From Escherichia coli (lineage in GTDB: Bacteria; Pseudomonadota; Gammaproteobacteria; Enterobacterales; Enterobacteriaceae): a stretch of DNA of 64,000 nucleotides. The stretch lies in NCBI RefSeq assembly GCF_001677475.2, contig NZ_CP015229.1; one strand, given 5' to 3'. The stretch's first letter is position 1. Every line of letters begins with the position of its first letter. Positions 6,001-9,000 of the stretch are shown one piece after another. Position numbers: made by a program.

Positions 6001-9000
6001 TGGGTATTTTTCATTCTCTAATGTTTTAACTTTGTAATTATTGCTGAAAAAAAATTAATCACCTGCCAAAAGAAATAAAAAAGAGAAAGCCTCCGATTAA
6101 ATTATTTCGCTACACTGGTTCCACTTTTGTGATTTACACGGGTTACCCATGAAGCTGACCATCATTCGATTAGAAAAATTTAGCGACCAGGACCGGATTG
6201 ACCTGCAAAAGATCTGGCCGGAGTATTCCCCTTCCTCGTTACAGGTTGACGATAACCACCGTATCTACGCCGCGCGTTTTAACGAGCGCCTGCTCGCTGC
6301 CGTACGGGTAACCTTAAGCGGCACCGAGGGAGCACTGGATTCCCTGCGCGTGCGGGAAGTCACTCGACGTCGCGGTGTGGGGCAATATCTGCTGGAAGAG
6401 GTTTTGCGTAACAATCCTGGCGTTTCATGCTGGTGGATGGCGGATGCAGGCGTGGAAGATCGCGGTGTGATGACGGCGTTTATGCAGGCACTGGGATTTA
6501 CGGCACAGCAGGGCGGCTGGGAGAAGCGTTAATCGCTCTGTGTAAAAAGCAGTTCAATGGATTTGGTTGGGAAAAATAACGCATTTTCGTTTTCCCCGAC
6601 TAAAGGGATAAAGCCCAGCGATTTATAAAACGTATGGGCTTTTTCATTCAGCGCCTCGACAAAAAGACCGTGAATACCTACCGCTAAAGAGGCTGACCAG
6701 ACGACTTTCATGGCATGAGCAACAACTAGCGTTCAATCACCAGTTATCCCGGAAAACACCTCAAGTTGTTTTGCTGAGCGTTGTAATTTTTCGCCAGGTG
6801 AAGGCGATTTACCCAGTGCATCCATCACTCGCGCCCATGAAGTCTCATTAAGTATTATGCGCTGATGTTGTTCAATAATTTCTAACGCCTGCAGGTGAGC
6901 GCTACTCAATATAAACTGGCTTAAGGACTGTTGGGATATCGCAGCTGCCGTTTCAAACAAACATTTATCATCATCAGTTAAAGACAGCGCAATATGCTGA
7001 TTTTCAACAACAGACATAGTGATTTCCCTTCCACTCATCAAATGTACGAAATACTATCGAGTCTCCAGCATAACTCAATTGATCAATCTTTCTACAACCA
7101 TTTCGACAAACATAAAAAACCCGATGGCAGTGCAGCGCATCGGGCATTTTCATTTACGAGATTGCTGGCAAACTAGCTCACTTATTAATACGGGTACGGT
7201 TTTACCCCTCACCCTAACCCTCTCCCCGAAGGGGCGAGGGGACTGTCCGAGCGCTTTTGAACTTTGTCATCAATCTGATTTATCTGACAATTACTTCGCA
7301 TCGGTCGCCGTGCCGTTGGCGTGCCAGTCAAATACGCCGAACTCAAAGCCTTTCAGATCGCCTTTCTCATCCCACGTCAGCGGCCCCATCACCGTATCAA
7401 CCGAGTTCGCTTTCAGGTATTTGGCGATCTCCGCCGGATCGTCAGACTGATTCAGCCCCGCCTGCAAAGATTGCAGCGCCGCGTAGGTGGTCCAGACGAA
7501 TGCGCCGCTTGGATCCTGTTTTTTCGCTTTGATCGCGTCAACAATCGGTTTGTTCGCCGGAACCTGATCGTAGTTCTTCGGCTTGGTCACCAGCAGTCCT
7601 TCCGCTGACTCGCCCGCGATATTAGACAGCGAGACGTTAGCCACACCTTCCGGCCCCATAAACTGAGTTTTCAGCCCCGCCGCGCGCGCCTGACGCAGGA
7701 TCTGCCCCATTTCCGGGTGATAACCGCCGTAGTAAACGAAGTCGATATTCTCTTTCTTCAGGCGTGCCACCAGCGTCGAGAAATCTTTTTCCCCGGCGGT
7801 GATGCCATCAAAGAACACTACGTTAGCATTGCCTTTCTTCAGGCCGTCCTGCACCGCACGCGCCAGACCTTCGCCGTACTGTTGTTTGTCGTGAACGATA
7901 GCAATACGCTGCGGTTTCACTTTCTCAAGAATATATTTTGCCGCCGTCGGCCCCTGGTCGGAATCCAGGCCGGTGGTGCGCAGGATCAGCTGATAGCCAC
8001 GGGCAGTCAGCTCTGGCGCGGTTGCCGCTGGGGTGATCATTAAAATGCCTTCGTCTTCATAAATGTCAGACGCTGGCTGTGTTGATGAAGAACAGAGGTG
8101 ACCAATGACATATTTAATGCCGTCGTTAACCACTTTGTTCGCCACCGCGACGGCCTGTTTCGGGTCACAGGCATCGTCATATTTTACGATTTGCAGTTTA
8201 TTGCCTTTAATGCCGCCTTTAGCGTTGATATCCGCAACCGCCTGCTCTGCGCCGGTAAACTCCTGATCGCCGTACTGCGCAACCGGACCGGACATTGCGC
8301 CCACGACGGCGACTTTAATATCTTCTGCCAGAGCCATATTGCTGAATGCCAGCGCGATACATCCTGCCAGTAACGCTTTACCCTTTATGTTCATCCTGAG
8401 AATCCCCATTCTTCTGGTTATTACGTGTGTTGTGATGTTGTTGTTCAGCACTTTATTTCGTTTTATGCATGACTACCCGTGCTTTAGCAGCATACTCTGC
8501 TAAAACATACCCGATTTTTATGATATTGGAATAGCTATTTTGACAGTTTATTAACAATCTGCGTGGGGATTGGCGTTTTGCCGGAGGGGGAAACTGATTA
8601 TTGCAGAGGCCCAAAAAACAAAAACCCCGGATTCTCATCCAGGGTTCTCTGCTTAGTAGCGGAAATTACGCTTCAATGGCAGCGCGAAGTTTTTTCATCG
8701 CGTTCTTTTCCAGCTGGCGCACACGCTCAGCGGAAACACCGTAACGGTCAGCCAGTTCCTGCAACGTGGACTTGTTGTCTTCGTCCAGCCAGCGCGCGCG
8801 GATGATATCCTGGCTACGCTCGTCCAGACCTTGCATCGCGTCGGTCAGACGGTTTGCCGCCTGCTCTTCCCAGTTATCATCTTCGATGCCGTCGGCAAAG
8901 TTAGATGATTTATCCTGCAGATAGAGCACCGGTGCCATCGGCTGGCTGTCGGAATCGTCGTCGGAAGACAGGTCAAAGGTCATGTCCTGTGCCGCCATAC

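What the first reader, a model, noticed from the sequence alone, without database searches (positions are those of the whole stretch)
6529..7041. Orphan DUF1778 antitoxin with a toxin stub, between panZ and livJ
A full-length DUF1778/RHH-type antitoxin ORF is followed, in the same frame directly after its stop codon, by only the last ~60 codons of a GNAT acetyltransferase toxin. This looks like an internally deleted toxin that left the antitoxin (and its autoregulated promoter) intact, a small accessory insertion in an otherwise conserved core interval. The remnant ends 4 bp inside the convergent panZ gene.
Basis: partly seen in the sequence, partly recalled or inferred. Interest (0 to 1): 0.5.

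Follow-up and report, generated by a model that had tools for sequence, protein, structure and literature searches.

The report
Decayed AtaRT toxin-antitoxin locus remnant
This is the wreck of a known E. coli toxin-antitoxin cassette (AtaRT): the toxin gene has lost its first two thirds and is dead, and the intact antitoxin gene beside it is a distant relative of the usual partner that has lost its DNA-binding residues, so it is an ordinary gene-decay relic and not a new system.

Summary
On the minus strand between panZ/panM and livJ lie a 94-aa TacA/DUF1778 antitoxin ORF (6733-7017) and, in frame after its stop codon, the last 64 codons of the GNAT toxin AtaT (6529-6723). This stub is 100% identical to E. 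coli O157:H7 AtaT residues 112-175. It lacks the acetyl-CoA loop and the whole N-terminal part, so the toxin is dead.

Canonical ataRT occupies this same site in 1613 of 5426 complete E. coli genomes. K-12 has none. The layout seen here occurs in 10 of those genomes, where NCBI already annotates it as a pseudogene plus a DUF1778 protein, and in several hundred draft contigs. The junction is identical in all 18 carriers examined.

The antitoxin and its upstream region (6724-7087) are 72% identical to ataR (dS about 0.94, against 0.18 between Escherichia species). Both flanks are 97-100% identical to O157. No intact partner toxin was found anywhere.

The AtaR operator palindrome is absent. The near-invariant DNA-reading Arg8 and Arg12 are His and Ser. 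Carriers show relaxed constraint (omega about 0.5) and nonsense alleles.

Verdict: a decaying mosaic remnant, low interest.

The parts
6529..6723 (-). 3' remnant of the GNAT toxin gene ataT: codons 112-175 plus the stop codon (6529-6531). It keeps the catalytic Tyr144. It lacks residues 1-111, including the acetyl-CoA loop LQGQGWG (residues 102-108).
   Evidence: phmmer against the PDB: AtaT 6GTS residues 111-175, E = 2.5e-38. tblastn of AtaT finds only this piece in the 64-kb window. Nucleotide identity to O157:H7 is 100% over 6359-6723. Annotated as a pseudogene 'missing N-terminus' in the equivalent genomes.
6724..6759 (-). 36-nt junction segment of unknown origin. It comprises antitoxin codons 87-94 (VFSGITGD), the TGA stop (6733-6735) and three in-frame codons ACG CTA GTT (6724-6732). 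It has no counterpart in AtaR or AtaT.
   Evidence: Homology to AtaR ends at residue 86. A local alignment of this segment against ataR-ataT finds only the ataR 3' end and scores no better than shuffles (P = 0.14-0.24). The junction sequence is identical in 18 carriers.
6733..7017 (-). Orphan antitoxin ORF of the TacA/DUF1778 (RHH) family, 94 aa plus stop. It is 65% identical to AtaR, with H8, A10 and S12 in place of R8, D10 and R12.
   Evidence: Pfam TacA1, E = 1.1e-17. BLASTP against AtaR: 56 of 86 identical. dS 0.94, dN 0.23 against ataR. R8 is present in 62 of 67 family representatives and R12 in 61 of 67.
7018..7087 (-). Divergent upstream region of the antitoxin. It has a Shine-Dalgarno-like GGAAGGG. 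One half-site-like CGTACAT is retained, but the AtaR operator palindrome is absent. A 10-bp palindrome ATTGATCAAT (7078-7087) lies at its outer edge.
   Evidence: Inverted-repeat scan: the 9-nt perfect palindrome is present in O157 (L002 2555-2577) and nothing equivalent is found in the window. No sigma-70 match on the minus strand. Identity to O157 is about 70% here and 97% from 7088 onward.
7114..7150 (-). Intrinsic terminator of livJ (a hairpin followed by a U-run on the minus strand). It is shared with canonical ataRT loci and separates livJ from the antitoxin.
   Evidence: Inverted repeat I1 is present in both the window and O157. RNA fold -23.4 kcal/mol, z = -4.9.
6149..6532 (+). panZ/panM, the convergent core gene. 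Its stop overlaps the toxin stop by 4 bp, as in intact loci.
   Evidence: ORF list. Annotation of equivalent loci.
7291..8394 (-). livJ, the core gene upstream of the cassette on the same strand.
   Evidence: ORF list. Annotation of equivalent loci.

Best explanation
This is a decaying, mosaic remnant of an AtaRT-family (GNAT toxin / RHH antitoxin) type II toxin-antitoxin cassette. It sits in the panM-livJ slot where about 30% of E. coli carry intact ataRT.

Shown:
- The toxin is dead. Only AtaT codons 112-175 remain. They have no start codon context, no acetyl-CoA loop and no N-terminal half.
- The antitoxin ORF next to it is complete, but it is not the partner of that toxin. It belongs to a deeply diverged AtaR-like lineage whose own toxin has not been found anywhere.
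- All carriers examined share one junction, so the event happened once.

Inferred:
- The junction arose in one of two ways. Either foreign antitoxin-bearing DNA was joined illegitimately to the resident ataT at codon 112, anchored by homology on the livJ side. Or a deletion occurred inside an ancestral divergent cassette, and the stub was later overwritten by recombination with canonical ataT alleles up to the point where homology ends.
- The orphan antitoxin can probably still fold and might still bind AtaT-like toxins through its C-terminal half, because M65, L68, K77 and R53 are kept.
- It has probably lost operator binding and autoregulation, because R8 and R12 are replaced and the palindrome is gone.
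- It is drifting towards loss and is not being maintained for a function.
For: - Identity of the parts.
- Same slot as canonical ataRT. Full-length ataRT is present in 1613 of 5426 genomes. The site is empty or REP-filled in K-12.
- Mosaic structure: 100% identity to O157 in the stub and panZ, about 72% over 6724-7087, and 97% beyond.
- Depth of divergence: dS is 0.94 against ataR, compared with 0.18 for ataR, 0.14 for livJ and 0.24 for panZ between Escherichia species. AtaR differs by one residue across Escherichia species.
- Single origin: the junction is identical in 18 carriers representing 10 antitoxin haplotypes.
- No intact partner toxin was found in plasmids, GTDB species representatives, a metagenome pattern scan, protein-database contexts or the contexts of AtaT homologues.
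- Loss of the regulatory part: the palindrome is absent, although it is kept even in another Escherichia species. R8 is conserved in 62 of 67 family representatives and R12 in 61 of 67, but here they are H and S, or C in some alleles. KacA R8A and R12A lose DNA binding (PMC6698736).
- Relaxed constraint: omega among carriers is about 0.5-0.6, not distinguishable from neutral (P = 0.06-0.12). For canonical ataR between species it is about 0.04.
- Nonsense alleles of 79, 83 and 62 aa occur on about 30 contigs.
- Independent decay of the canonical cassette is seen in strain HH97.
Against: - The antitoxin ORF is intact in most carriers, and its C-terminal toxin-binding half is the better conserved part (omega 0.15 against AtaR, compared with 0.39 for the N-terminal half). 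A retained neutralising role is therefore not excluded.
- With only about 28 segregating mutations, the test for selection has little power.
- H8/S12 could reflect a different operator specificity and not a loss of binding.
- Expression was not tested.
- The donor of the divergent block and the origin of the 36-nt junction segment are unknown.
Confidence: 0.72

Rival explanations
1. Simple in-situ internal deletion of the resident ataRT operon. One deletion removed the 5' two thirds of ataT and left its own antitoxin and autoregulated promoter untouched.
For: - The stub is in frame with the antitoxin, and it overlaps panZ exactly as native ataT does.
- The locus is the ataRT slot.
- Strain HH97 shows that internal deletions do occur here.
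Against: - The antitoxin and promoter are 28% diverged from ataR (dS 0.94), while the stub and flanks are 97-100% identical to canonical loci.
- AtaR is nearly invariant across Escherichia species.
- The operator palindrome is absent.
- A 36-nt junction segment matches neither gene.
Confidence: 0.08
2. The orphan antitoxin is kept by selection as a trans-acting neutraliser (an anti-addiction or immunity factor) against AtaT/KacT-type toxins arriving on plasmids or by recombination. It is expressed constitutively because it no longer represses itself.
For: - The ORF is intact in most of the several hundred contigs.
- The neutralisation residues defined in KacA (M65, position 68, position 77, R53) are conserved or AtaR-like.
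- The C-terminal half has omega 0.15 against AtaR.
- Deleting the N-terminal 10 residues of KacA does not stop neutralisation (PMC6698736).
- Cross-neutralisation between GNAT-RHH pairs has been seen (KacA3 on KacT2, PMC9431474).
- AtaT-family toxins are common on enterobacterial plasmids.
Against: - Omega among carriers is about 0.5-0.6, not different from neutral.
- At least three independent nonsense alleles remove the toxin-binding helix.
- The layout is rare, in 10 of 5426 complete genomes.
- Most GNAT-RHH paralogues do not cross-react (TacAT1-3 and most KacAT pairs).
- No promoter consensus was detected.
Confidence: 0.17
3. The RHH domain has been retargeted. With H8, A10 and S12 it recognises a new operator and now acts as a stand-alone transcription factor for other genes.
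For: - The changes are concentrated on the DNA-reading face of the beta-strand.
- A perfect 10-bp palindrome ATTGATCAAT lies upstream at 7078-7087 (read from the sequence).
Against: - Positions 10 and 12 are themselves polymorphic among carriers (A/V and S/C). That argues for relaxed constraint and against a new fixed specificity.
- Four positive charges are lost from the strand (K5E, K6N, R8H, R12S).
- A palindrome of that size is expected by chance about once in ten such regions.
- Nonsense alleles exist.
Confidence: 0.03

Closest known systems
AtaR-AtaT (ataRT) of E. coli O157:H7. GNAT toxin that acetylates aminoacyl-tRNA, with an RHH/DUF1778 antitoxin. PDB 6AJM, 6GTS.
   Same: Same chromosomal slot (livJ-ataR-ataT-panM), same gene order and strand, and the same 4-bp overlap with panM. 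The toxin remnant is identical to AtaT residues 112-175. The antitoxin has the same fold family and is collinear with AtaR over residues 1-86.
   Different: The toxin lacks residues 1-111. The antitoxin is only 65% identical in protein and 72% in DNA. It carries an 8-residue foreign tail. It lacks R8, D10 and R12, and the operator palindrome is absent.
KacA-KacT of Klebsiella pneumoniae (PDB 5ZGN)
   Same: Same family. The antitoxin matches KacA with E = 8.5e-25. The residue numbering is shared, so KacA mutational data (R8, R12, M65, I68, R77) can be mapped directly.
   Different: Different species and locus. KacAT is an intact, autoregulated pair.
Orphan antitoxins and degraded toxin-antitoxin loci in E. 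coli (for example the survey in PMC10790755), and the anti-addiction model (chromosomal ccd of Erwinia)
   Same: An antitoxin gene persists after its toxin is inactivated, which is the expected safe order of decay for an addiction module.
   Different: Here the surviving antitoxin is not the cognate partner of the surviving toxin fragment. No trans-protective activity has been shown.

Membership tests
GNAT/RHH type II toxin-antitoxin module (TacAT / AtaRT / KacAT family) | Antitoxin with a DUF1778/TacA RHH domain | tested here: met
   Pfam TacA1 PF08681, E = 1.1e-17. AtaR and KacA PDB chains, E = 1e-25 to 1e-31.
GNAT/RHH type II toxin-antitoxin module (TacAT / AtaRT / KacAT family) | Adjacent full-length GNAT toxin with the acetyl-CoA binding loop and the catalytic Tyr | tested here: not met
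   Only AtaT residues 112-175 remain. Tyr144 is present, but the loop at residues 102-108 and residues 1-111 are absent. No other AtaT-like sequence is found in the window.
GNAT/RHH type II toxin-antitoxin module (TacAT / AtaRT / KacAT family) | Palindromic operator in the promoter, read by Arg8 and Arg12 of the RHH strand | tested here: not met
   The palindrome is present in O157 and in another Escherichia species but absent here. Positions 8 and 12 are His and Ser, whereas Arg is found in 62 of 67 and 61 of 67 family representatives.
GNAT/RHH type II toxin-antitoxin module (TacAT / AtaRT / KacAT family) | Antitoxin neutralises the toxin through its C-terminal region | not testable with these tools
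   Only residue conservation could be checked. M65, L68, K77 and R53 are as in AtaR.
AtaR (orthologue of the O157:H7 antitoxin) | Near identity to AtaR. AtaR differs by 0-2 residues among E. coli alleles and other Escherichia species. | tested here: not met
   65% identity. dS 0.94 against an inter-species scale of 0.18. NCBI's pipeline names it 'DUF1778 domain-containing protein' or 'TacA family antitoxin', not AtaR.
AtaT (toxin) | Sequence identity to AtaT over the full length of 175 aa | tested here: not met
   Identical over residues 112-175 only. Annotated 'incomplete; missing N-terminus' in equivalent genomes.
Orphan antitoxin acting as an anti-addiction module | Antitoxin gene without a functional cognate toxin | tested here: met
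   No intact partner was found in any collection searched.
Orphan antitoxin acting as an anti-addiction module | Expressed, and protects against a homologous toxin supplied in trans | not testable with these tools
   No expression or toxicity data. Population data (omega about 0.5, nonsense alleles) lean against maintenance.

The most novel reading that the evidence does not exclude
The junction records a one-step 'disarming' of a resident addiction module. Foreign DNA carrying only a divergent AtaR-like antitoxin replaced ataR and the 5' two thirds of ataT. The replacement was anchored by homology on the livJ side and joined illegitimately at ataT codon 112. The incoming antitoxin cross-neutralised residual AtaT, so the cell survived. 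It now persists as a constitutively expressed, non-DNA-binding immunity factor against AtaT/KacT-type toxins on mobile elements.
Probability: 0.12. Interest if true: 0.45.

Novelty: new member of a known kind. Interest (0 to 1): 0.2.

Why it matters
The remnant matters little on its own. Degraded toxin-antitoxin loci and orphan antitoxins are common in E. coli, and this one is already annotated as a pseudogene plus a DUF1778 protein in RefSeq genomes.

Its modest value is as a clean natural example of how a chromosomal addiction module is lost:
- The toxin goes first and the antitoxin lingers.
- The DNA-reading residues and the operator decay before the toxin-binding half.
- The dead toxin stub keeps being overwritten by recombination with live alleles. 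This gives it a misleadingly 'purified' polymorphism (omega about 0.17).

The mismatch between antitoxin and stub also gives a ready-made test case for cross-neutralisation specificity within the AtaR/KacA family.

Tried and rejected
1. NCBIfam has no AtaR or AtaT models, so it gave no verdict.
2. A Pfam scan of the 67-aa stub was not significant (E = 0.21). Identity rests on the direct AtaT match.
3. Rfam found nothing in the whole window at gathering thresholds.
4. By eye, the junction segment seemed to resemble either AtaT 'LAIDR' (residues 96-100, in another frame) or the start of ataT (MDDLTI). A local alignment with 2000 shuffles showed neither is better than chance, so both were dropped.
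5. The search for the variant antitoxin's own toxin found nothing:
   - plasmid tblastn (best 52% identity);
   - GTDB species representatives (only AtaR at 66% and a 55% hit);
   - the 50%-clustered protein library (the variant falls in the same cluster as AtaR);
   - a degenerate-pattern scan of metagenomes (one hit, same truncated layout);
   - contexts of AtaT homologues in other Escherichia species, all paired with canonical AtaR.
6. dN/dS on the stub as evidence of function was rejected. Its alleles track the canonical O157-type and WP5-type ataT alleles, so the variation is imported.
7. An assembly artefact was rejected, because 10 complete genomes and many independent assemblies share the layout.

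Full report
**What is there**

Window 4616-9520 has the E. coli core order livK(-), panZ/panM(+, 6149-6532), livJ(-, 7291-8394), rpoH(-). Between panZ and livJ, on the minus strand, a single reading frame contains two pieces. The first is a 94-codon ORF starting at the ATG at 7017 and ending at the TGA at 6733-6735. The second is 67 further codons ending at the TAA at 6529-6531.

The first ORF is a TacA/DUF1778 antitoxin. It matches Pfam PF08681 with E = 1.1e-17 and AtaR and KacA chains from the PDB with E = 1e-25 to 1e-31. The 67 codons after the stop match AtaT of E. coli O157:H7 (PDB 6GTS) at residues 111-175 with E = 2.5e-38, and residues 112-175 are identical. The 4-bp overlap with panZ is real and is also the native ataT/panM arrangement. 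The only corrections are that the gene starts at 7017, not 7041, and that a Pfam scan alone cannot recognise the short stub (E = 0.21).

**The toxin is dead**

The stub begins at Val112. By my count of the AtaT sequence, the acetyl-CoA loop LQGQGWG is residues 102-108. That loop, and everything N-terminal to it, is missing. Only the catalytic Tyr144 region and the C-terminus remain. No other AtaT-like sequence exists in the 64-kb window. The internal ATG at 6711 has no visible Shine-Dalgarno sequence (read from the sequence).

**Context in the species**

Canonical ataR-ataT occupies exactly this slot (livJ-ataR-ataT-panM):
- It is full length in 1613 of 5426 complete E. coli genomes.
- Other Escherichia species also carry it there.
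- K-12 has REP-like sequence in this position.
- The window's layout occurs in 10 of 5426 complete genomes at 96-97% identity. There NCBI's pipeline already calls the stub an N-acetyltransferase or AtaT pseudogene 'missing N-terminus', and calls the ORF a DUF1778 or TacA-family protein.
- The antitoxin protein and its close variants are on several hundred draft contigs, including unclassified Escherichia.
- One further genome, HH97, shows an independent decay of the canonical pair in which both genes are truncated.

**The locus is a mosaic**

Identity of the window to O157:H7 changes sharply along the region:

| Window segment | Identity to O157:H7 |
|---|---|
| 6359-6723 (panZ and stub) | 100% |
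| 6724-7087 (junction, antitoxin, upstream region) | about 72% |
| 7088 onward | about 97% |

Between the variant antitoxin and ataR, dS is 0.94 and dN is 0.23. The scale between E. coli and another Escherichia species is far smaller: dS is 0.18 for ataR, 0.14 for livJ and 0.24 for panZ. AtaR differs by a single residue across these species. The antitoxin block therefore belongs to a much older, xenologous lineage, not to the cassette whose toxin end survives.

The last eight antitoxin codons, the stop and three more codons (6724-6759) match neither ataR nor ataT beyond chance.

The junction sequence is identical in all 18 carriers examined, which represent 10 antitoxin haplotypes. This indicates a single origin.

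No intact partner toxin for this antitoxin was found in any of the following:
- plasmids;
- GTDB species representatives;
- a metagenome pattern scan;
- every genomic context retrieved;
- the neighbourhoods of AtaT homologues.

**How the sharp boundary can arise**

The stub's alleles in different carriers track the two canonical ataT allele classes, O157-type and WP5-type. The stub's polymorphism also looks strongly 'purified': 18 synonymous against 8 non-synonymous changes, omega about 0.17. For a dead fragment, this means the variation is imported by recombination with live ataT alleles. Such tracts can run up to the junction, where homology ends, but not beyond it.

Two histories therefore remain open, and both are inference. 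In the first, foreign antitoxin DNA was joined illegitimately to the resident ataT at codon 112. In the second, a deletion occurred inside an ancestral divergent cassette and the stub was later homogenised.

**State of the antitoxin**

The canonical promoter carries a perfect palindrome, ATGTACGGT-N5-ACCGTACAT. It is kept in another Escherichia species but is absent here. No sigma-70 consensus is detected on that strand.

In the RHH beta-strand the family motif KKQRIDLRL reads VENQHIALSL. Arg8 is present in 62 of 67 diverse family representatives and Arg12 in 61 of 67. Here these positions are His and Ser, and positions 10 and 12 even vary among carriers (A/V and S/C). In KacA, R8A or R12A abolishes operator binding and D10A weakens it (PMC6698736). 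AtaR alone binds its operator weakly and needs the toxin as co-repressor (PMC8138530). Loss of autoregulation is therefore likely.

The C-terminal, toxin-binding half is better preserved. It is 70% identical to AtaR against 60% for the N-terminal half, and its omega is 0.15 against 0.39. The residues needed for neutralisation in KacA (M65, position 68, position 77, R53) are as in AtaR.

**Is it maintained?**

Among carriers the antitoxin has about 10-11 synonymous, 16 non-synonymous and 1-2 nonsense segregating changes. Omega is about 0.5-0.6, not distinguishable from neutrality (P = 0.06-0.12). For canonical ataR between species it is about 0.04.

Truncated alleles of 79, 83 and 62 aa, which remove the toxin-binding helix, are found on about 30 contigs. 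One contig has TGA changed to TGG, which fuses the antitoxin to the stub.

I read this as slow decay. A residual trans-neutralising role is possible, since cross-reaction occurs in some GNAT-RHH pairs but not most (PMC9431474). It is not supported by these data.

**Verdict**

This is a degraded member of a well-known family, already flagged by standard annotation. No paper describing it turned up in the library searches made. Interest is low. The mosaic origin and the order of decay (toxin first, then the operator and DNA-reading residues, then the antitoxin) are the only points of note.

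Noticed in passing
window ~7151-7277 (GC-rich hairpin core 7205-7241); second copy at window 17421-17458 (-): An insertion of about 125 nt lies between the livJ terminator and the livJ stop. It is absent from O157, K-12 and one carrier (VCSW5). It is a small dispersed intergenic repeat, found at 2-5 places per genome in 2525 of 5426 E. coli genomes. From memory it resembles the boxC class of repeats.
   Followed up: partly
window 51402-55932 (+): A three-gene CBASS type II defence operon: a SAVED-endonuclease effector (E = 2e-195), a CD-NTase cyclase (E = 1.5e-160) and a Cap2 E1-E2 protein (E = 3e-241) by PADLOC models. 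An IS66-like transposase gene follows at 56780-58372.
   Followed up: partly
window ~32700-50500: A low-GC (35-44%) island. It contains two paralogous 540-aa and 563-aa ORFs (33028-36603, -), two fimB/fimE-like recombinase genes (39835, 41376), an AraC-like regulator, a heptosyltransferase and a 1240-aa AIDA-like autotransporter (43805-48740), an EAL-domain gene and IS fragments.
   Followed up: no
P0003 (ENA metagenome contig, 880 nt), equivalent to window 6733-6735: In one contig the antitoxin stop TGA is TGG. The antitoxin therefore reads through into the AtaT stub as a single fusion ORF (...ITSDWTLVVAHAMKVV...).
   Followed up: partly
L016 / L017 (1686-2060), carriers of the 'HIVLCL' antitoxin allele: In this sister lineage panZ is reduced to about its last 57 nt. 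It is followed by a duplicate of the livJ 3' end (about 190 nt) and then a TRAP-transporter (DctM) gene in place of panZ-livK. The rearrangement apparently removes panZ from this site.
   Followed up: no
L015 (E. coli HH97), 2477-2828: An independent decay of the canonical cassette at the same slot. Both ataR (missing its C-terminus) and ataT (missing its N-terminus) are truncated and frameshifted.
   Followed up: partly
window 6529-6732 compared across 18 carriers: The dead toxin stub shows strongly 'purifying' polymorphism (18 synonymous, 8 non-synonymous changes; omega about 0.17). Its alleles are copies of live ataT alleles brought in by recombination. This is a caution against reading dN/dS as evidence of function in pseudogene fragments that still have live homologues in the population.
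   Followed up: yes
window 7078-7087: A perfect 10-bp palindrome ATTGATCAAT, containing a GATC Dam site, lies exactly at the outer edge of the divergent block. O157 has ATTGTTTAAT at this position. Its significance is unknown, and it may well be chance.
   Followed up: no
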